NCBI RefSeq assembly: GCF_004010195.1
Contig: NC_057742.1
Span: 3,235,084-3,299,083, forward strand
DNA length: 64,000 nt
Reading direction: 5' to 3'
Source: Chiloscyllium plagiosum
Taxonomy: Eukaryota
The notes under the pieces are model-generated. The model saw only the letters and a program-made list of their open reading frames with translations, was not told the DNA's origin and made no database searches. Position 1 is the first letter of the stretch, and every line of letters starts with the position of its first letter. Shown here piece after piece: positions 3,455 to 53,380 of this stretch. Position numbers and translations under genes: made by a program.

Positions 3455-4045
3455 GATAAGAACATAAGACGCAGGAGCGGAAATAGGCCGTTCAGCCCAT
3501 CGAGTCTGCTCCATCAATGAAATCATGACTGATCTGATAATCCCCAACTTCACTTTCCTGCCCTTTCCCGATAACTCTTGATTACTGTACTTATTATAAA
3601 TCTGTCCACCTCAGCCTTGAACATGTTTAATGCCCCAGCGTCAATTGCCCTCCGTGGTAAAGAATGCCACAGGTTTACTACCCTCAGAGAGAAGAGCTTC
3701 TTTCTCATCTCTGTTTTAAAATGGGGGATCTTTATTCTGAGAGTATCCCTCTGGTCTTAGGCACTCCCGCAAAGGGAAACACCCTGTCAACTACACTAAG
3801 AATTTTCTATTTTCGATAAAGTTACCGCTCATTATTCTAAATTCAGATGAGTACAGGCCCAGCCGACTCAACCTCTCCTCCTACAACAATCCCTCCATAT
3901 ATAGCATCAGCCCAGTGAATCTTCTCTGGACTATCTCCTCTGCTAGAATATTTTACCTTCCATGAACGGCCCCAAACTATTCGCAATATTCCAGCTGTGG
4001 TCCTACTTAGTGTCATAGAGAAATTCAGCAAAGCCTCTTCCTCTT
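3455..4045 (-). mobile_element. Degenerate 5'-truncated CR1-like LINE fragment
   Basis: Plus strand begins TAAGAACATAAGA...AATAGGCCGTTCAGCCCATCGAGTCTGCTCC...ATCATGACTGATCT, the reverse of a CR1 3' tail and UTR. It continues into the antisense of ORF2 C-terminal sequence (CCCTCAGAGAGAAGAGCTTCTTTCTCATCTCTGTTTTAAA). Boundaries are approximate. Confidence 0.78.
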
Positions 4046-4339: not shown

Positions 4340-4582
4340 CAGGAGGTTTAGAGAAGACTTGGAGAAATATCGCCCAGGGGTTAGTGTGGGTCTGGAATGC
4401 ACTATCTGGGGCGGTGGATATGAGGCGGGAAACCTCACAACCTATGAAAAAGTACTTGGATAAGATCTTGAAGTGTCATTAACATTCAAGGCTATGAGAT
4501 TACTGCTGAAAGTGGGGGCTAGTGTAGGTAACAGTGTATTTTGACAGTACAGACCCGATGGGCTGAAAAGTGTCTTCTGAAC
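4340..4582 (+). mobile_element. Degenerate CR1-like LINE 3' fragment
   Basis: Contains the GTCTGGAATGCACT (W-N-A-L) motif, then AAGTACTTGGATAAG (K-Y-L-D-K), and the terminal GATGGGCTGAA motif. Confidence 0.7.
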
Positions 4583-4682: not shown

Positions 4683-5722
4683 GTATTAAAGTCCACCAAC
4701 ATTTTGGGAGATCCGTTTTGTCGAATTGGTTCAGCATAAGATTATGAAAATGTATTGACTACTTCAACTGTTGGGAGGATACGATTAAATGGAAACAAAT
4801 TCACTAAAATAATGATCCCGAAGATTTTTTAAATCATTAGCAGCCTTTTGTGCTGTAGGTGTCTGTGTGGACATTAGAACCTTATCCATAAGATCCAGCG
4901 CGAACTTAAGCCAATAAAATGCATGAATAAAACGGAAAAGGACTTAGAGTATGTTATTTGTATCGGCTGCTTAAGAAAAACATAAATATAACATAATAAC
5001 TCGAGTTATGGATTTTTTCAGGCATTATGAACTCCCTGTTCTCACAGTTTAGTTATGGAATATGACATTCGGGATAGATTATGGAACTCAAGATTTGCAA
5101 CAAATCTGTGGACTGTTACTTTCAAGATATTCTCGTGAGATATGTGAATGTGGGTGGACATAGTTTTCGGTTTATTACAGAATGTGGTGGTGGTGGGGGG
5201 AGGGGGGAGTGACTCATTGCAATGAAATTCCAGGTCCACAGAAAATTGAAAGGTTCTGAGAATTTTTTGCGCTCTCCCTACTCCTTGACAGAGACGGTAG
5301 GTGACCTTGGATCTCCACCACCAGGAGTTTATGCGGCTCTGTTTCCCAGGCAGTTGTCACTCCCTGGGAACTCCCTGGGCCGTGTATCATAATCACTGCG
5401 ATCAACTTGAAACGGACGGTGCAACAAAATGGATTTCAATGTCCAAGGTGCCCTATCAATTCCTGGAGATGTGTTTAACAAGTGTATGCACTCACTTAAA
5501 CTTATAACACAGATATGCAATGGTCCAACCAATTCTTTAAACATACCCTCACCGTCCATCTAGTTAGATTATGTTGAATCACTTCAACCAATGAAAAAGA
5601 ACAGAAATATGAATCTATCTTTCCATCACTTTATATAGTGGTATATTTCTCGGTTAAGCGGCAGCTCACCAGAATAGGCGATGTATGTATCTACTTAATT
5701 GCCATTCAACATTTATAGAATC

Positions 5723-5906
5723 AAGCAGAGAAAATGTTGGAGGAACTCAGCAGGTCTGGCAGCATCTCTTGAGAGAAAAAACAGTTAACGTTTCGAGTCC
5801 AGACTCTTCTTCAGAATGCAGATTCGAAGATGTTGATAGACCTGCTGAGTTTCTCCATCATTCTCTGTATTTGTTTCAGATTTCCAGCACACGTAGTATT
5901 TTGCTT
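5723..5906. mobile_element. Palindromic Penelope-type repeat with hammerhead core on the minus strand
   Basis: 14-bp perfect inverted repeat (AACTCAGCAGGTCT 5744-5757 / AGACCTGCTGAGTT 5838-5851). Minus strand 5814-5787 reads CTGAAGA-A-GAGTC-TG-GACTC-GAAA-CGTT. Same family as 20360-20540. Confidence 0.7.
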
Positions 5907-8453: not shown

Positions 8454-8792
8454 GAAGACAAGTGAAGGAGAGCTGGTTTCTTGCGGCTGGCTCTGGGCAA
8501 ACCTTTCAGCCTGAGTAAATATTGAACGATTCCATCTGATGGTCGAAATGAAACGGCCCTGTCAGGCAAAAGTAAACTTAAAGAGGGTATACCACAAGGA
8601 GCTGAAAATTATATGGCCACGTCCTTATTGTTTTCGGTTCGGGTCAAATTCTCCCTCACCTGCCTGTTAAGTAAAGACACACGGAGGTGATCAGTAATTA
8701 AATGGAAAAGAGACAAGTGCTGACAAATGCGTCTCCCGATTCTCAATAACACTTTTCAATAAAACTAGAAGTAAAATAAAGCAAATAAGATC

Positions 8793-8896
8793 AAAGTATT
8801 TCGAAGTTGAGTCATTTAGACTCCCAACGTTAACTCTTGTTTCTCTCCATAGTTGCTGCCAGACCTGCTAAATTTCTCCAGAACTTTCTGTTTTTA
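8793..8896 (+). mobile_element. Decayed copy of the Penelope-type/hammerhead repeat
   Basis: GAGTC-ATTTA-GACTC stem, then CCAACGTTAACTCT...TTGCTGCCAGACCTGCTAAATTTCTCCAG, homologous to 5723-5906 and 20360-20540. The catalytic motifs are mutated. Confidence 0.6.
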
Positions 8897-13251: not shown

Positions 13252-13595
13252 TTAAGAGGTCTGGAGGTTTTCTGACGTGGACGACCTGGGCGATGTGGAT
13301 GGAGAGGTAGTGGATGATTTGTCTGAACCGTCTCCGGTCTCTTTTGCAGAGTGAACGGAGAAGTGGGGTGCGAATCCCTCCTTCTCTCGCTTCTTCTGTT
13401 TCATCCTGCGGTTCTGGAACCAGATTTTTACTTGGGTCTCATTCAGCTCGAGCGTGGCAGCTATCTCCACTCTCCTGGCGCGGGTCAGGTACTTGTTAAA
13501 ATGGAATTCTTTCTCCAGTTCAGTTAATTGCTTGGTGGTGAAATTGGTCCGCATTGTATTCGTCTGACCACCTAAACCGTAATCAGCAATTCTGG
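13252..13595 (-). CDS. hoxb1: Homeobox protein Hox-B1, exon 2 (homeodomain)
   Basis: Paralogue-group-1 homeodomain [56 protein letters not shown], with the B1-type ATLEL. Acceptor TTTTTGCAG lies at 13596-13597, phase 1, and the stop TAA at 13252-13254. Confidence 0.96.
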
Positions 13596-14364
13596 CTGCA
13601 AAAACGAAAAAGGAAACAATTAGACCGGCACTACGTGAGCAGCTCCCACCCATCCCCCATTCCTCAGCATTAACCAACAACTTCAGCACTTAGTGTCCCG
13701 GAACTTGATAGAGGGAAGAGATAAAACACAGCGCGAAGCTTTTAGACTGAATTTACTTCATCTCATTAAACGACAAGATTCCAAAAACAGAACACTTAAA
13801 CTTCCAATGAAGCAGTATAACGTGACTGCAAATACTTGCTCACCCTCCCGTTGGTATTTTTCTAAGTATCTTCTTTAATATAAAGTACACTAAACCAAAC
13901 TAAATCTTAAATATTAAAATAGCAACTTGTGCAACAGCTTGTTCACAAGGTTTAATTACAGAGTCAGATCTTAAGGGACATCACACTTAAAGCCGCAGTT
14001 CAGCTTCCTACAAAGATCTGTCTGTCATTTTCAGGTCGGTTTCATAAATTAAGAATCAACCGAACATTTAACTGTTATTTACTCCAGTTGATTCCCGGAA
14101 GGGGGAGTGCCGAGCGAATGGGTGACGGTGAAACTCCACTTGAATACTGTAGGTCTTAATTAGCAAAGTTCAAACAGAGGGCAAAAGTATTTTTCATTAC
14201 TTTGGACGTTTGTTGGGAAACAAACGGATGTTAACGTCACCATACTTTTGCCATTTGAAGAAATTAAATTGCAAAAAAAGTAGCAAGCAAATGAATTGGA
14301 TTTTAGCCAGTTCTTTGACTCACTGCACAGGTAAGGAATGGATTAGAGCATTTCTCATACTAAC

Positions 14365-14956
14365 CTGTTTTAGGAGGATTTCTTTTCACTTTCATCCAGT
14401 CAAACGTCTGGCCCGAAGAGGATGAATCAGAGGTGCCGGGAGGTTCCTTCTCCACCTCTTGAGATGGAGACAGATTAGCACAAATCCCATACGGCAAACC
14501 CTGTTGCTCTTGGCCGTAGGAATGCTGATACTGACCCGGCCCTGAGACACCACAATAACCGTCTGAAAGCGGATTGACATTGGACGCTATATTGGCAGTG
14601 TACCCCGAGCTTTGAAAGTATGCCCCATCCGTTTCTTGATTGAAAAAGTAATGGTGATTGTAACCCGGGTTGCAAGTTTGGGTCGTGTAGTTGTTGGGGC
14701 CTGAACTGGCGTATGGGTTCCCCAAACTGGAATGATGCGAGGAACTGGCTGACTGGTGCTGATGCTGGAATGCATTGTGTGCGTTTCCTCCTACTAAGAA
14801 TCGTCCATCACCATTGCAATTGTCAACGTTACCTGCACAAGGAGCGAAAGCTGTTATCCCTTGTTCTGAATGGTGGTAACCCTTGGATGAGTAGGCGCTC
14901 GTCCCACGATTACAAATTGCGTACTCTAAGAAGGAGTTCATCCTGGTATTGTCCAT
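14365..14956 (-). CDS. hoxb1: Homeobox protein Hox-B1, exon 1 (spliced product 311 aa)
   Basis: N-terminus MDNTRMNSFLEY and hexapeptide TFDWMKVKRNPPKT. Donor CAG|GTTAGT. 592 nt + 344 nt joins in frame. Confidence 0.95.
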
Positions 14957-17210: not shown

Positions 17211-20200
17211 GTGGGTGCACGAAGTGAGCCAGGGAGCGAGAAACAAACTTGTTTTTTTAAAAATCACATAACCATCATTGAATTTTCATTAGGCGAGACC
17301 TGCAGACGTCATTCTAGCTAACAGAAATCCTCAATACTAAATGATGATCTACAAAAAAACCCACGAATCTTTGGATTGCAATATAATCTTTAAGTAACGC
17401 CGCAAAGTTTTATTGTAGTAGAGGCCCAAACGTTGCCACTTGCTGCGATTTCACTGGACTAATGATGTACCACGTGGTGACACAAGAGTGTGACCGAGAG
17501 CCATAAATGCTGTTCATCTACCAGCTGCTTTTGCAGGGTGCCAGATGTAGCCAATGTTGGCAAAATAAAGAATTGGACCTCTGGTAAAACTTCTGAGCCA
17601 GTAAACCTGCACAACCTGTGAAGCAGTATCCTTGTTCTATTTTGTTGTATTTCGTGAAAATAGATTTGTAGCTGACTGTGTAACTACGTATAACCTTACG
17701 CCTTGTATGAAAGACATTTAATTAATCACTGGAAAATAACTGTACTGACACGGATTACTTAATAATCTAGCAATTTCCATTTAAGCTCCGTGTAAATGGA
17801 AAGAAGATGGTTGACAGAAATGAATAGTACCTTCAATCCATACTGGATTCCTTTATTGATCAGGATAGTTGGGAAGTGGCCATGATGCATTTGATACCAT
17901 ATAATGCAATATTGGCGACAAGTATTTAACTGAACTGAGCTAAAATACGATCATTTTCACTGACCCATATTCTAATCTTTCATGAAAGGTAAAAATGTGT
18001 AAATGATGTCTGTCGTGCACTGTAAGTAGGTGAGCTTTCTCTGGTCACAAGTGCAACTATCTGTTCAGAACCCGTTTTCACTCATTCAATGCGAACGTAC
18101 TTTACTTTCAATCTAGCAGATACATAAAACCTGGATTTGTTCGGGATTGGAGTTCCTCTTTTTAATGAGAGGTTGCACATTTGATTTGCTAGTATCACAG
18201 AGGATAAATCACATATACCATAATTAGCAAGACTGCAAACTTCTCAGCCAATATTCTGCATTTCAGTTGTAGGTGATTCTCCCAACAGTGAAGCAATTCT
18301 CCATGTCGATCCCTTTCTGATGTCAGCTTCCGTCGACAATATGGTTACACAATTATTTCTCTGTGATTCATCCAATCCCAGTGCCCACCACAGCTGTCGT
18401 GTTGGATTCAACTTGCTGAGGAAAACTGATGCCTGCTTCTTTATCTCCTTTACCTACACCCCTCTTTATGCCTCGAATCTTTATTTCAGATTAATACCAC
18501 CTCTCGATTGAGGCGGGGGGAGGGGGGGGGGGGAATATTTCGAACACATATATTTCTCAAAGATGTAAGAAATGCCTTCCTTGAGAAATAAAACAAAAGT
18601 ATGAAATACTTCATTCTGGTTTTGTAAAGTGTGAATTATATCTCCTCGTCAGGGCATCGACTTGATACTGATACACTAATCCCGTTTTAAGGGGGTACCA
18701 CATGATGTCCAGCTGCCCGACTGAATAAGCAGTAAGAGTGCTTCTAATCACACAGCAGAGTTAAGCATTGTGGTCAGACTCCATCCGAAACTCTTCTTCT
18801 GTACTCTGGTCTTCCCAAGGCTCCAATATGAACCAGATGTGAAGTCTCACTGGGTTAAAATATCAGAAACGTTTTAGTCGGACAACAAAATAGGAGAAGT
18901 TAGTAAACAACAAGATAGCTGATGAATGAATGTGAGATAAAGGAACAAGCAGTTTAGAATTTGAGAGCAAAAGTGCACTGGACTATAAACGAAAGCCAAG
19001 ATCTAGAAAGAGCTCTGCAGTTTTGAGACCTTGGCAATGATTGCGTTAAAAAAAAAACCCGGGAGAAGTGGGTTTGATAACGAGAAATGGGAAAAGCTGC
19101 CCTGCTGAAGTTGATGTATTTTACAAAGTCGGCTGTAATGCGTTATTTTCAGGCAAAAGCTTCGCCCACTTCAGTTGCCATAGCGACATGTGTGCTGGCT
19201 GCAGTTGTCCGTTTTCAAGGGTCTGATGGGATAGCATGTGTGCAGAAATACCCCTACGCTAGGTTAGTACCTCACACTCGGTGTATGGCGGGAAGTGAAG
19301 AAGCTGTGGGCAGAAAAGAAATGGAACATTTCAAAAACGCGAAACCATGCGGTCTGTTGTCGGCTATAATGTTTTAGCCACGGTCACTGGGCAGTTCATT
19401 ATGCACAGACGATAGGAGTCCATCACTCCCAGGCAATGATTTGTAGATTTCTGTATGAACAGGAGAAAAACTCTTTAAAGCACAACTCAGCATATCCCTA
19501 GGCTTTTAAGGGTTTAATTTAGCGACTAGTAATATACAAATCCAATGTCTGGCATTTGTCATTTTGACTTATGTAATCGTTTTATTATTGACATTTACTG
19601 TTTAATTGTTAAATTTATTACAGTATTTGTTTTCTTAAATAATATTTAACTTTTATTTCAACCATCTATTTATTGGCTTCCCAGGTTTGAACCAATCAGA
19701 GTACTTGGAGAAATATGTCTGAAAGATTGATTTTAAATTTATGAAATTGATCAGAAATTGACAAGTAGGAGGAGGAAAAAGGGATACAATATGTGTTTAG
19801 GGAAGGTCGGATTGAGTGGTTAGTTCCCATTTATTAAAGCTGTTGTGTGGGCATAGAATTGATTTGTAATTGTCACTGGCGTGTTCCCTGGACGTGAAGC
19901 AAGTTTTACTGGTCATTATGCTATGTAAAGAGGTGCTCGTTAGAGATTTGTATTGATAACACGTCAAGGTTTGCACATGTAAGTTGACGGAGTTTGTACT
20001 CAATTAAACTGTCATGCATTTATATTGGAATAAAGCAGAGCACCTAACTCTATAGCAAGATTGAATCTTAGAATTTCTTGGAGTCTCCGCCCTTAAACTA
20101 CATTGAATACATAAGCAGAATTGTCCAAGGGAACTGATCTTTCAATGTGGTCTTAGAATTGTTTGATAAATAATGGAATTCTAATTCTCATTCTACTCAT

Positions 20201-20359
20201 ATTTCCATTTGCCCTCCCAATGTATCTGTGTTTGCTCTTTTTCTTCCTCTTCACTCTTTGTATCTCTTTCTCTTTAGTTATCCTGCACGTTCTGATCTCA
20301 AAATTTCCTATTCTTCCAGCTTTTCTAAGACCATTTCAATGTGACTTATTCATAATAAA

Positions 20360-20540
20360 AGTAAATTACTGCGGATGCTGGAATCTGAAACCAAAAGAGA
20401 AAATGCTGGAAAATCTCAGCAGGTCTGGCTCGTTAGAGCTTTGACAAAGGGTCAGTTCGACTCGAAACGTCAGCTCTTTTCTCTCCTTACAGATGCTGTC
20501 AGACCTGCTGAGATTTTCCAGCATTTTCTCTTTTGCTTGC
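20360..20540 (+). mobile_element. Palindromic Penelope-type insertion with a minimal hammerhead ribozyme motif (20435-20477)
   Basis: Perfect 36-bp inverted repeats at 20392-20427 and 20500-20535. Between them is AGAGCT-TTGACAA-A-GGGTC-AGTTC-GACTC-GAAA-C-GTC-AGCTCT. Confidence 0.78.
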
Positions 20541-22907
20541 TTATTCATACTTTGTTTTTTGTTTTCTCTCTGTGGTCTCCTATCTTTTTTTTACCATGCC
20601 TCACCACATGTCATACAGTAAAGGACGAAATTTGTTGTTGTTAAAATAATGTAATATTGTCATGTTTCTTGCCCTCAAACCAGGACATTTTCTCGTGTGG
20701 TTTGTACTTTTCTGTCGAATATTCCATTGCGAACTCAACGAGCAAAACGTGTTGAACTGCAATGCATGCGACAAGTAGCTTTGAATAGGACGCCTGCTTG
20801 TTCCAATAGGGGCTATGCCTAAAAGATGAAGTACAGCGTAATAAACGAATAGATTACCGAAAGGAGCCACAGACAAAGGACGAACGCGGTGGAGAGTTAA
20901 GAAATGACTTGATTTTGTAGGCGTTTAAGGCTTTTTGTAAAGCATTCCGAAACAAAACTTGGGATTTTAAAATGAAATTGAACAAAGAATGGAAAAAAGT
21001 GCAGATAAAAATTGATAGAATAATCATTAGCAGACAGTGAGTGTTTTGCGTTTTGCGCTCTCACGGCGCCATTTTGAGGCTGCAGAAGGCGGACCTTGTC
21101 ATCCTGATACTTGCAACATTTTCTGTGGAGCATTTCCGAGGCCCTACCAAATTCCTGCCTTTCTTGGGAAATACCGTGACTAGGCTAACGCGCAATATGA
21201 TTTATTTTTTATGTCACTCCGATTGATTTCTCAAGATGACCCCCCTCATTCATAAAGCAGCTTGATGTATGAGTTTAAACAAAAAAATTACATCTTGTAA
21301 ATAAACCTCCCTTGGCAGAGCGCAAGGGGCGGGGGGTGGGGGCGAAAAAGTGGAGCACAATTGCGAATAAAGATGAAGTCTTGATCGATGTTGTTAGTTA
21401 TTTTCTGGCCATTTGCACAAAGCCTTTTCCTCTTCACGCTCTTTTTATCGAGCAATGTTTTTCTCATCACAAGCTACTATTTGGCCGCCACCCCTTATAC
21501 TGTCTCAGCTGTTCCTCTGGCTTTCATTTCCATTTTTATTTTAAAGTGTATTTTCTCGTGCTCCAAAGTTTTCGTTTTAATTTCCTCGTCATATTTCCCA
21601 CTCGCCATTAATTGTATCGCGATATTATTAAACATCAGAGAGAATGTGGGAATTGCACCAATTGCATTCAATCCCAGATATATTGGTGCCCCCAAACTCA
21701 GAGACTATCAGTGCCAGTCCCAGTCCAATAAATAGAAAGAGGTAGGCACGGGAAGGATACCCGGCTGAAAGGAACACCCCCTCCCCTCAAAATACTGTCT
21801 GCTTGATGCGAAGGGTGAGCAGCACTGAGGCCATTTTATTCAACATTCGAGAAGCTGATGGGGACAGGACATTAAAAACAGCGCATCAAGGGACCCGATA
21901 GCTGATTTCTTTTAACAGTGGGATTTAAATGCCTCCAGACAGAGCAACGAAGCGAATCCATTTGGACGGATAGAATCGGAATCACTCTAACGCTCCCTCC
22001 CCCCAACACCGACCTCCGTGTTTGTAATAAGCTTTGTATGTCTTGACGTTTTGATGGCCAGTTTTGTCTTCTAAGATATTCCAGTAGAGTTTAAGCTAAA
22101 TTCTAATTGGCTATTCTGCAAAATAAAATCAATTTTAAAATAAGGTGACCACTCTGCCCATCAAGCCTGCAATCGTTCATGCTCCATGTTGGCGATATCT
22201 ACGAAATCCAATTTCCCTCATCAGCTACTTCTTCAAGTAATTTTCTATTGAATTAAGTGGCAACATTAGAAGGTTGAGTGTTTTGTTTTCCTAGAAACTG
22301 GCGGAATCAAGGGCTGGAAACTTCACCCCTCTGAGCTCGATTGGGGAGCTCATGAATAATGGGTGATCACTTTGATTCACGAATGGGTGGGGGCGGGGAC
22401 AGGACGTCAAAAACAGGGAGAAATTGCATTAGCAATCTAAAATGCGATTAGCTTTTAAGACTTCCATTTGGTTTACTCGTTTCACTGAATCATCTTCCAG
22501 CGTAAAACGACCCTTGTATAATATAGTATACAACACACATCAATTTAGAAAAAATGTTGCTTAGAGAGGAATTTCGAAGGATATTAAAACATTTGGTTAT
22601 CCATCCTGTTTGATGCTTAAAGCAATAGGTTGGTACAAAAACTAGATTATATAACACCTGCCATTTTACTACCGCAAATCCGGCGTGGCCAATTCGCGTA
22701 GATACCTTCTCGTAGATATAAATTCGATGATTTATTTCTTTCAAACACACGCGTTTTACGTCTTTTTTTGTCAGCTAACAACAAACATATTCTCTATGCG
22801 CTATTTTTGATCTGATTCTTGATGCAGAAATTTCGAAAGTAATAATATTAACACTAACAGCCACCTTGAAACACAGACAGTAAAGTTTCATTAAAGAATT
22901 AAGTCGT

Positions 22908-23351: not shown

Positions 23352-24067
23352 CTATTGATAATTAAGGTGTTGCAAGTCTATTGTGCAGAGAGCGCTGGTG
23401 AAAAAATCAAAGCTGTCCTCGGGGATATCCACAGGACTGTCGATGGAACCCTGCAAGCTGGGAGATAATCCATCGGAGAACGGCAGATAGGAATCCGAAG
23501 AAAACATGTTTAAATCTGCGAGGGGGACCAATTCGAGGGCCTCTGAACTAAGAGTGTCCAGACCAGAGCTACAAGTCTGGCCTATTGTAAACCCGTTTTC
23601 AGCGCTGGCTGTCACGTAGAAGGGGCTCTTGGCTTTTCCGTCGCTGCCGCATACAGTCAGGCCCTGCAGGTTCTGGAGTTCTTTGCTAAGTGTGTGTTGA
23701 ATTTGTTTTCTTGCTTGCTCGGCGCAGTTTTTACTCTCTAAATAAGTCCCTGATGCTTCTACCGGTTGGGTAAATTGTGATGACTCCTCGCCTTTGTCCT
23801 CTGGAAGCGAACTGATAGAAAAACTAACTTCCCCGTCTTGATTTTCTTTATACTGTGATTGCCTCTTGTGCTTCATGCGTCGGTTCTGGAACCATACTTT
23901 AACTTGCCTCTCGGTTAGGTCGAGGAGGGCCGCGATCTCCACTCTGCGTGGCCTGCACAGATATTTGTTGAAGTGAAATTCTTTTTCTAGTTCCAAAAGC
24001 TGCGTGTTCGTGTACGCTGTCCTCAGTCTCCGGGAGCTGTTGCTGTTTTCCTGTTCACACTGGCCTT
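23352..24067 (-). CDS. hoxb2: Homeobox protein Hox-B2, exon 2 (homeodomain)
   Basis: PG2 homeodomain [59 protein letters not shown] and C-terminus [15 protein letters not shown]. Pyrimidine tract plus TAG acceptor at 24068-24069, phase 1. Confidence 0.95.
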
Positions 24068-53284: not shown

Positions 53285-53380
53285 GCGTTTGTGTCGACTA
53301 CATACTCCCCTAGATACGAATTTGTGACCACAACTTTGTCAACACAAATTCGGATCTACAGGGTATATATAGAGGACAGA
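53285..53380 (-). ncRNA. mir10a: microRNA mir-10a precursor
   Basis: Mature 5p UACCCUGUAGAUCCGAAUUUGUG at 53365-53343 and 3p arm CAAAUUCGUAUCUAGGGGAGUA at 53324-53303 form a hairpin, in the canonical position upstream of hoxb4. Confidence 0.97.

What the first reader, a model, noticed from the sequence alone, without database searches (positions are those of the whole stretch)
20435..20477. Minimal hammerhead ribozyme with a compensatory U3-A8 core, inside the Hox cluster between hoxb1 and hoxb2
Seen in the sequence: the plus strand folds as a type-I minimal hammerhead. Stem I is AGAGCU (20435-40) paired with AGCUCU (20472-77), 6 perfect bp. The core is UUGACAA (20441-47) plus one extra A. 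Stem II is GGGUC/GACUC with an AGUUC loop, followed by GAAA (20464-67), a palindromic ACGU mini-stem III and a GUC cleavage triplet (20469-71). Established: the canonical core is CUGANGA with a C3-G8 Watson-Crick pair, U3-A8 is a known tolerated covariant, and Penelope-like retroelements carry minimal hammerheads that cleave as dimers. Inference: both positions changing together suggests the ribozyme was functional in this subfamily, so any plus-strand (antisense to Hox) transcript through this interval could self-cleave. A sister copy at 5814-5787 keeps the C3-G8 form, giving covariation within the window.
Basis: partly seen in the sequence, partly recalled or inferred. Interest (0 to 1): 0.8.

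Follow-up and report, generated by a model that had tools for sequence, protein, structure and literature searches.

The report
Penelope hammerhead stub between Hox genes
A 185-base end-piece of a very abundant Penelope-like jumping gene sits between two Hox genes and carries a small hammerhead self-cutting-RNA motif whose swapped U-A core pair is shared by over a thousand sister copies and is already in print for another animal, so this copy is likely an inert passenger.

Summary
The motif is real but ordinary. It is the first 39 bases (20437-20475) of the forward arm of a 185-bp fold-back insertion (20355-20539, 10-bp target-site duplication): the 3' end of a Neptune-type Penelope-like retrotransposon. 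U3-A8 is the subfamily norm (at most 1232 of 1356 exact core matches; 53 of 57 in an unselected sample), appears once on an endonuclease tree whose other labelled lineages are C3-G8, and is published for Schistosoma elements. Family-level point: 5' ends pile up at the first base of helix I (33 of 95 exactly; 1 of 95 at the cut site), about 30 bases behind a TATA-like box kept in five subfamilies, so the element's RNA likely starts at the ribozyme and is copied uncut. The scan had already noted both the U3-A8 subfamily and the pile-up on other DNA of this genome.

The parts
20345..20354 (+). Left target-site duplication CTTATTCATA
   Evidence: Occurs exactly twice in the window, at 20345 and 20540
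20355..20429 (-). Inverted, 5'-truncated arm of the element's 3' end, including the 35-bp optional tail (20355-20389)
   Evidence: Inverted repeat I3, 91% over 47 nt; tail end matches the commonest 3' end of the family, 25 of 95 arms
20430..20436 (.).
   Evidence: Absent from native copies, which read CCCTTTTTTT-AGCT
20437..20475 (+). Native minimal type-I hammerhead motif: helix I AGCU 20437-40/20472-75; core UUGACAA 20441-47 (U3 20441, A8 20446); extra A 20448; helix II 20449-53/20459-63; GAAA 20464-67; palindrome ACGU 20467-70; predicted cut after C20471
   Evidence: Sequence, descriptor scan, family alignment
20437..20535 (+). Forward arm of the element's 3' end, without tail; begins at the family's 5'-end hotspot (first A of helix I)
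   Evidence: 33 of 95 arms begin at this base
20540..20549 (+). Right target-site duplication CTTATTCATA (20536-39 CTTG is filler)
5718..5882 (-). Older fold-back stub of another subfamily; C3-G8 core at 5814-5808, helix I 2 of 4 pairs, loop II shortened to 2 nt
8790..8895 (+). Third, more decayed stub; core destroyed (GAAA reads CCAA, 5' core unrecognisable)
13252..14956 (-). Hox1 gene (hoxb1-like), two coding exons; context only
   Evidence: ORFs; homeodomain best PDB match HoxB1, E 5.4e-30
23352..25015 (-). Hox2 gene (hoxb2-like), two coding exons; context only
   Evidence: ORFs
21079..21298 (+). Conserved non-coding stretch matching the Rfam HOTAIRM1_2 model just at its gathering score; context for a possible plus-strand transcript
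   Evidence: 37.0 bits vs gathering 37, E 0.16

Best explanation
The motif is the inherited front end of a 185-bp, target-site-duplicated fragment of a Penelope-like retrotransposon, its U3-A8 core is the standard state of a subfamily with more than a thousand copies, and this single copy is likely catalytically silent. Shown: the insertion's anatomy (inverted arm with tail, filler, forward arm, TSD); the link of the same sequence to an upstream 3' UTR, GIY-YIG endonuclease and reverse transcriptase in longer copies; fixation of U3-A8; the pile-up of 5' ends at the first base of helix I and not at the cut site; an AT-rich box about 30 bases upstream in five subfamilies. Inferred: the terminal repeat's promoter starts RNA at that first A; the element's protein begins reverse transcription about 100-135 bases downstream and runs off the uncut 5' end, giving these stubs; the master element kept the 3-8 pair under selection (G8>A at a CpG, C3>U restoring the pair; order unknown), with cleavage happening only as a dimer through ACGU or with the element's protein; after insertion, copies drift. 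The Hox copy lacks the TATA box and a partner.
For: Anatomy. Parent element: native upstream in 230 exact matches; endonuclease with CX4CXXC linker and RT motifs upstream in L083, L096, L103, L104, L334; Pfam GIY-YIG E 6.8e-4. Core states among 1356 matches: 103 non-U3 with A8, 21 non-A8 with C/G/T at 3 (6 C3-G8, 7 U3-G8, 5 U3-C8, 2 U3-U8, 1 G3-G8), leaving at most 1232 U3-A8; 53 of 57 in the downstream-anchored sample. Other subfamilies: C3-G8 in 58 of 68 (B), 26 of 28 (C), 7 of 7 (D) parsed copies, C and D partly fetched by a C3-G8 pattern; helix I covaries AGCU/AGCU, AGUU/AACU, AGUC/GACU, AUUC/GAUU. 5' ends: 33 of 95 at the first A, 58 of 95 within -2..+3, 1 of 95 at the cut site (0.56 expected; upper 95% bound 4.8%); B 13 of 31 and C 13 of 30 within -2..+3. 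TATAAA/CATAAA/TTTATC box at about -33 to -24 in 20 hand-picked native copies of five subfamilies. Literature: monomer inactive, dimer weak (PMC4209133); protein-assisted, uncleaved RNA is the dominant template, RT starts downstream of the ribozyme (PMC11167929).
Against: The window copy's core is intact, including both CpGs (about 0.3 of copies would be, from the frequencies), and helices I and II are predicted to form in context. The Pfam score (20.3 bits) is below the curated cut-off 22.6. No full-length, two-repeat parent was recovered from 18 stretches of 10 kb. The transcription start is inferred from DNA ends only; the extra-G mark expected from copying a cap was looked for and not found (base before +1: C 40, G 15, A 45 of 100 listed rows, T excluded by the pattern). 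The pile-up is looser in the older B and C subfamilies, and the C anchor excluded cut-site starts. The RNA test was weak (2% and 6% of two runs of one sample). The tree rests on 23 short rows, only 6 of them labelled for core state.
Confidence: 0.85

Rival explanations
1. One reading: the copy cuts a plus-strand (Hox-antisense, HOTAIRM1-like) transcript and so affects Hox regulation. It would need such a transcript, plus pairing of two RNA molecules or help from the element's protein.
For: Core intact; helices I and II predicted at P 0.95-1.0 (innermost helix I pair 0.47) because the flanking hairpin clamps them. A HOTAIRM1_2-like conserved stretch lies 540 bases downstream on the same strand. 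Contigs of a run guessed to be RNA from another organism cover parts of the unique flank at depth about 3 (X1).
Against: No intact same-strand partner in 64 kb. Predicted GAC/GUC pairing (P 0.94) buries the cut site in the monomer. RNA run X13: 108 reads laid, all on the repeat, 33 of 35 with the family's A instead of this copy's C at 20458, none on unique flanks; X14 laid nothing. The Rfam match is borderline (E 0.16). In Anolis no RNA-seq reads began or ended at the cut site (PMC11167929).
Confidence: 0.04
2. U3-A8 is not a selected compensation: the master element lost ribozyme function (G8>A at a CpG, C3>U by chance) and amplified anyway because transposition does not need cleavage.
For: It is a single event of two transitions. 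Ribozyme mutants still insert in vitro (PMC11167929); Naiad elements thrive without canonical hammerheads (PMC8557442). Insertions come from uncut RNA.
Against: All other core positions and both helices stay intact in this subfamily's majority sequence while the spacer upstream has diverged; the two changes hit exactly the paired positions; no single-mismatch subfamily amplified; the same swap arose in Schistosoma elements (PMC4209133).
Confidence: 0.2
3. The 5' pile-up is not a transcription start but a processing or pausing site: a 3' splice site (pyrimidine tract plus AG, as in D. virilis Penelope where an intron ends at helix I), slippage on the poly-U run, or joining through the palindrome AGCT.
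For: Subfamily A reads CCCTTTTTTTAG|C. 29 of 100 listed arms form perfect palindromes centred on AGCT. No extra-G cap mark. D. virilis Penelope has a TATA-less internal promoter and an intron there (PMC2377424; PMC4209133).
Against: Ends start at the A, before the AG junction, with unrelated upstream sequence rather than a shared exon. Subfamily B has ATTC (no AG, no palindrome, no poly-U) and C has AGTT, yet both pile up near the same place. The second AGCT, at the cut site, draws 1 of 95. A TATA box 20 bp before an Inr-like motif is reported in rotifer Penelope repeats (PMC3846280).
Confidence: 0.2
4. If the insertion matters at all, it is as a long hairpin (double-stranded RNA on either strand, or a DNA cruciform), not as a ribozyme.
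For: The whole element folds at -76.1 kcal/mol, z -9.92, 0 of 200 shuffles; it draws weak pre-miRNA-like Rfam matches on both strands.
Against: Fold-back form is common to the family (51 of 95 arms have an inverted partner), so it needs no local function; no locus-specific RNA seen.
Confidence: 0.05

Closest known systems
Minimal type-I hammerheads (min-HHR) of metazoan Penelope-like elements, including the U3-A8 variant of Schistosoma mansoni Cercyon elements (Cervera and De la Pena 2014, PMC4209133; read parts 1-2 of 4 and searched 2 supplementary files)
   Same: Short 4-5 bp helix I, extra base between 9 and 10.1, G10.1-C11.1 pair, palindromic 15.2-16.2, mostly solitary truncated copies, about 1300 U3-A8 hits reported in Schistosoma.
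   Different: Host is a shark-type vertebrate genome; helix II is 5 bp; no shark term was found in the two supplementary files searched (one file could not be searched).
Poseidon element of Anolis carolinensis (Frangieh et al. 2024, PMC11167929; read parts 1-2 of 4)
   Same: Ribozyme in the terminal repeat upstream of two reverse-transcription start sites that define an optional tail; uncleaved RNA is the dominant template; no RNA ends at the cut site.
   Different: C3-G8 core; its ORF starts inside the ribozyme; Poseidon rather than Neptune-type linker; the parts read do not describe a pile-up of genomic 5' ends at helix I.
Insertion architecture of endonuclease-bearing Penelope-like elements (Craig et al. 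2021, PMC8557442, passages; Arkhipova et al. 2013, PMC3846280, passages)
   Same: 5' truncation, adjacent inverted 5'-truncated copy, 30-40 bp tail at one end, 8-10 bp TSD, palindromes at the inverted junction, putative TATA plus Inr in the terminal repeat, CX2-5CXXC linker of Neptune/Nematis.
   Different: Here most insertions are only the last 100-135 bases and begin at the ribozyme's first base.
Non-LTR retrozymes of animals (bioRxiv 10.64898/2026.07.22.740005; read part 1 of 5 and passages)
   Same: Type-I hammerhead-bearing non-coding derivatives of Penelope terminal repeats; reported in one chondrichthyan.
   Different: Retrozymes are head-to-tail tandem arrays with a ribozyme per unit; this is a single head-to-head fold-back stub.

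Membership tests
Minimal hammerhead (min-HHR) of Penelope-like elements | Core Y3-U-G-A-N-R8-A ... GAAA ... UH with a Watson-Crick 3-8 pair | tested here: met
   UUGACAA, GAAA, UC; U3-A8
Minimal hammerhead (min-HHR) of Penelope-like elements | Helix I of 4-5 bp, helix II closed by G10.1-C11.1, extra base after A9 | tested here: met
   Native 4-bp AGCU/AGCU, 5-bp helix II, A20448
Minimal hammerhead (min-HHR) of Penelope-like elements | Palindromic helix III region for dimer pairing | tested here: met
   ACGU at 20467-70; CG is the majority state in subfamilies A-D
Minimal hammerhead (min-HHR) of Penelope-like elements | Located in the terminal repeat of a Penelope-like element | tested here: met
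   Longer copies carry 3' UTR, GIY-YIG endonuclease and RT motifs upstream
Minimal hammerhead (min-HHR) of Penelope-like elements | Self-cleavage (as dimer or protein-assisted) | not testable with these tools
   Needs a bench assay; read laying showed no pile of RNA ends but had 108 multi-copy reads only
Canonical hammerheads in Rfam | Match to an Rfam hammerhead covariance model | tested here: not met
   None among 15 matches at E<=5
Neptune-clade Penelope-like element | [quoted passage not shown] | tested here: met
   VYCIRCSQCGLLYIG in L083/L103/L104; Pfam hit weak, below cut-off
Neptune-clade Penelope-like element | CX2-5CXXC zinc-finger-like linker between RT and endonuclease (shared with Nematis) | tested here: met
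   CNRRRCNTC; definition from PMC8557442
Neptune-clade Penelope-like element | RT phylogeny places it in Neptune rather than Nematis | not tested
   No reference RT set was at hand
Penelope-type insertion | TSD, inverted 5'-truncated arm, 30-40 bp tail at one end | tested here: met
   10-bp TSD, 75-bp inverted arm, 35-bp tail
Non-LTR retrozyme | Head-to-tail tandem units each with a type-I hammerhead | tested here: not met
   Single ribozyme, head-to-head arms; a direct upstream repeat in 3 of 95 sampled arms
Domesticated (host-exapted) hammerhead | Conserved at the orthologous site across species and present in a host transcript | tested here: inconclusive
   No relatives held for this genome; no junction-spanning record from another organism among those shown and no flank RNA reads in X13

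The most novel reading that the evidence does not exclude
In shark Neptune-type elements a TATA-driven promoter starts transcription on the very first base of the hammerhead, so the ribozyme is a 5'-terminal switch: cutting at +35 removes the cap only when two ribozymes meet (both terminal repeats in one RNA, or two RNAs on the element's dimeric protein), while uncut RNA serves as template. The thousands of genomic stubs are then a fossil 5'-RACE experiment showing that cut RNA is excluded from insertion, and the U3-A8 subfamily is a natural compensatory mutant that kept this switch.
Probability: 0.25. Interest if true: 0.55.

Novelty: new member of a known kind. Interest (0 to 1): 0.17.

Why it matters
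For Hox biology it most likely does not: it is one of three such stubs in a repeat-poor cluster. For retroelement biology the family is useful: the role of the hammerhead in endonuclease-bearing Penelope-like elements is called unclear in PMC8557442, and this genome offers a natural C3-G8 to U3-A8 swap plus thousands of mapped 5' ends that say the template is uncut and likely starts at the ribozyme. That agrees with the in vitro result for the Anolis element and gives a short, defined RNA for a direct test.

Tried and rejected
Rfam scan: no hammerhead family. Copy-level decay as the source of U3-A8: rejected by counts. An amplified C3-A8 intermediate: rejected; 70 of the 100 listed non-U3 rows are C3, but 0 of 20 fetched had the native upstream and most are inversion junctions; native-context C3 gave 3 matches (2 C3-A8 in one locus, 1 C3-G8). 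The one subfamily-A copy with C3-G8 (L160/L352) may be a survivor or a double back-change; not resolved. Cleaved RNA as template: 1 of 95. Extra-G cap mark before +1: not found; C is in excess instead (40 of 67 non-palindromic, non-native rows), unexplained. Full-length parent with two ribozymes: none in 18 stretches of 10 kb; no shared continuation beyond about TCCA after the tail in 109 tails. Sequencing runs: no RNA holder listed; reads were laid on 19400-21800 only, so the rest of the intergenic stretch is untested. Literature: 10 searches; none listed a paper on hammerheads in shark Penelope elements or on 5' ends piling up at helix I, but most subscription papers are outside the library. 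Lunse et al. 2016 (dimer cleavage), Martick and Scott 2006 and a recalled paper on 3-8 pair tolerance could not be opened, so measured rates for U3-A8 are not cited; Lunse is known only through the review PMC6765202 (passages). PMC6155905, PMC7151607, PMC2377424 and bioRxiv 10.1101/2025.06.08.657570 were seen as passages only. Supplementary alignment figures of PMC4209133 and bioRxiv supplements were not seen and could list shark motifs.

Full report
Observation. The letters at 20435-20477 are as described, and a generic minimal-hammerhead descriptor picks this site alone in the window. Rfam has no hammerhead family among 15 matches at E<=5; the 43-mer folds only slightly better than shuffles (z -2.16). 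The site lies between minus-strand Hox1 and Hox2 genes; the Hox1 homeodomain's best PDB match is HoxB1, which fixes the group better than the cluster letter.

What surrounds it. The motif sits in the loop of a long inverted repeat (whole element z -9.92). The insertion runs from 20355 to 20539 between two copies of CTTATTCATA, a 10-mer found only twice in the window. It has an inverted arm with a 35-bp tail (20355-20429), 7 bases of filler, and a forward arm from 20437 to 20535. This is the layout described for Penelope-like elements: inverted 5'-truncated copy, tail at one end, short TSD (PMC8557442; PMC3846280; passages).

Family. The window lies in a 3.56-Gb genome that I take to be shark-type from recalled likeness of the repeats and Hox proteins. 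A pattern free at positions 3, 7 and 8 gives 1356 exact matches, the reversed control 0. A downstream 37-mer gives 2449. In 230 matches the motif is preceded by CCCTTTTTTT, and such copies continue upstream into a 3' UTR, a GIY-YIG endonuclease with a CX4CXXC linker, and reverse transcriptase motifs (Pfam GIY-YIG E 6.8e-4 but below cut-off). So the parent is a Neptune-type element (Nematis not excluded).

Covariation test. Of the 1356, 103 have a non-U base at 3 with A8 (70 C, 17 G, 13 A among the 100 listed) and 21 have a non-A base at 8 (6 C3-G8, 7 U3-G8, 8 others; A3 with non-A8 was not counted), so at most 1232 are U3-A8. The C3-A8 class is largely a junction product: 0 of 20 fetched copies had the native upstream, and only 3 native-context C3 matches were found by the pattern. 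In a sample anchored downstream of the ribozyme, 53 of the 57 arms that could be scored without gaps (of 95) are U3-A8 and the other four are singletons, while G12 is changed in 17 and G16.2 in 20, both CpG sites: copies decay neutrally. Other subfamilies keep C3-G8 (621 matches; B 58 of 68, C 26 of 28, D 7 of 7 parsed copies, C and D partly chosen by a C3-G8 pattern) and show compensations in helix I and different helices II. On a tree of 23 endonuclease fragments, 6 of them labelled for core state, the three U3-A8 rows fall in one clade (93/95) whose sister is a C3-G8 row of subfamily D; one member of that clade (L352) has C3-G8. The swap is thus one event, probably through G8>A at the C7pG8 CpG. 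It fits selection in the master element, but one event is thin evidence. The same swap is reported for about 1300 Schistosoma motifs (PMC4209133).

Would this copy cut? Published minimal motifs do not cleave as monomers and cleave weakly as dimers (PMC4209133); the Anolis motif needs the element's protein, and no RNA-seq read began or ended at its cut site (PMC11167929). The window holds three stubs only: the one at 5.8 kb is on the other strand with 2 of 4 helix I pairs and a 2-nt loop II, the one at 8.8 kb has lost its core. In the predicted ensemble GAC pairs with the GUC triplet at P 0.94. No RNA holder was listed. In run X13 (about 2% read) 108 reads were laid, all on the repeat, 33 of 35 with the family letter rather than this copy's at 20458; the unique flanks had none; X14 laid nothing. 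That is a weak negative from one sample of unknown tissue. In favour of a plus-strand RNA there is only a borderline HOTAIRM1_2 match at 21079-21298 and shallow contigs of another organism's run guessed to be RNA (X1). DNA run X9 has a contig across the left junction with no differences, but may be the assembled sample.

The family-level result. Among 95 arms found through the first 90 loci of an anchor 14 bases downstream of the cut site, 33 begin exactly at the first A of helix I, 58 within -2..+3 of it (2.6 expected from the background loss rate), and 1 at the cut site. The window copy begins at that same base. Subfamilies B and C pile up near the equivalent base, more loosely (13 of 31, 13 of 30; the C anchor could not see cut-site starts). 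About 30 bases upstream, hand-picked native copies of five subfamilies carry TATAAA, CATAAA or TTTATC although the spacer differs. The simplest reading is a promoter that starts RNA on the ribozyme's first base, with stubs as run-off copies of uncut RNA, matching the internal start of reverse transcription and the uncut template shown in vitro for Anolis. A splice site or palindrome does not explain B. Against it: the extra G expected from a cap is absent and C is in excess before +1, D. virilis Penelope uses a TATA-less promoter, and no RNA 5' end was mapped. I reached this before looking at earlier notes; the scan had already recorded the pile-up and the U3-A8 subfamily on other pieces of this genome, which is not independent support.

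Verdict. Observation confirmed with corrections; interpretation partly supported. It works like, and by every sequence feature tested is, a Penelope minimal hammerhead; cleavage is untested. The Hox setting adds little: three stubs in 64 kb against up to 38 intervals in 200 kb of random sequence (some being two arms of one insertion) is what a repeat-poor cluster looks like. New member of a known kind; interest 0.17.

Noticed in passing
window 21079-21298 (+): Match to Rfam HOTAIRM1_2 exactly at its gathering score (37.0 bits, E 0.16), between Hox1 and Hox2 of what looks like a HoxB cluster: possibly a conserved non-coding element paralogous to the HoxA one.
   Followed up: partly
window 53297-53372 (-): Strong mir-10 precursor match (79.8 bits) upstream of a fourth homeobox gene.
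   Followed up: no
window 14023-14059 and 19727-19763: 37-nt inverted pair, 81% complementary, 5.7 kb apart, one arm in the Hox1 intron; both contain TTTATGA/TAAATT-like words that recall Hox/Pbx sites (label recalled).
   Followed up: no
window 21860-21881 and 22395-22416: 22-nt direct repeat (91%) 535 bases apart between the insertion and Hox2.
   Followed up: no
window 3491-3517 and 4541-4567: 27-nt inverted pair 1 kb apart, resembling two oppositely oriented ends of another repeat, perhaps a CR1-type LINE (label recalled).
   Followed up: no
L160 / L352 (G000:C49:7256029-7256066): The one subfamily-A copy found with C3-G8 and a TTTC before helix I like subfamily D; lies in a duplicated segment (L347/L349, 89% over 4.9 kb). 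Survivor of the pre-swap state or double back-change.
   Followed up: partly
rows; loci L353-L382: The base just before the 5'-end hotspot is C in 40 of 67 non-palindromic, non-native junctions (G 15, A 12; T excluded by the pattern); unexplained.
   Followed up: partly
rows: 29 of 100 listed arms form perfect head-to-head palindromes centred on AGCT, meaning both arms end at the same base.
   Followed up: partly
L350/L351 (G000:C11:47104844-47105755): Two same-strand fold-back units 883 bases apart, both with native-context C3-A8 cores; a rare place where a cis dimer geometry exists but with a mismatched core.
   Followed up: no
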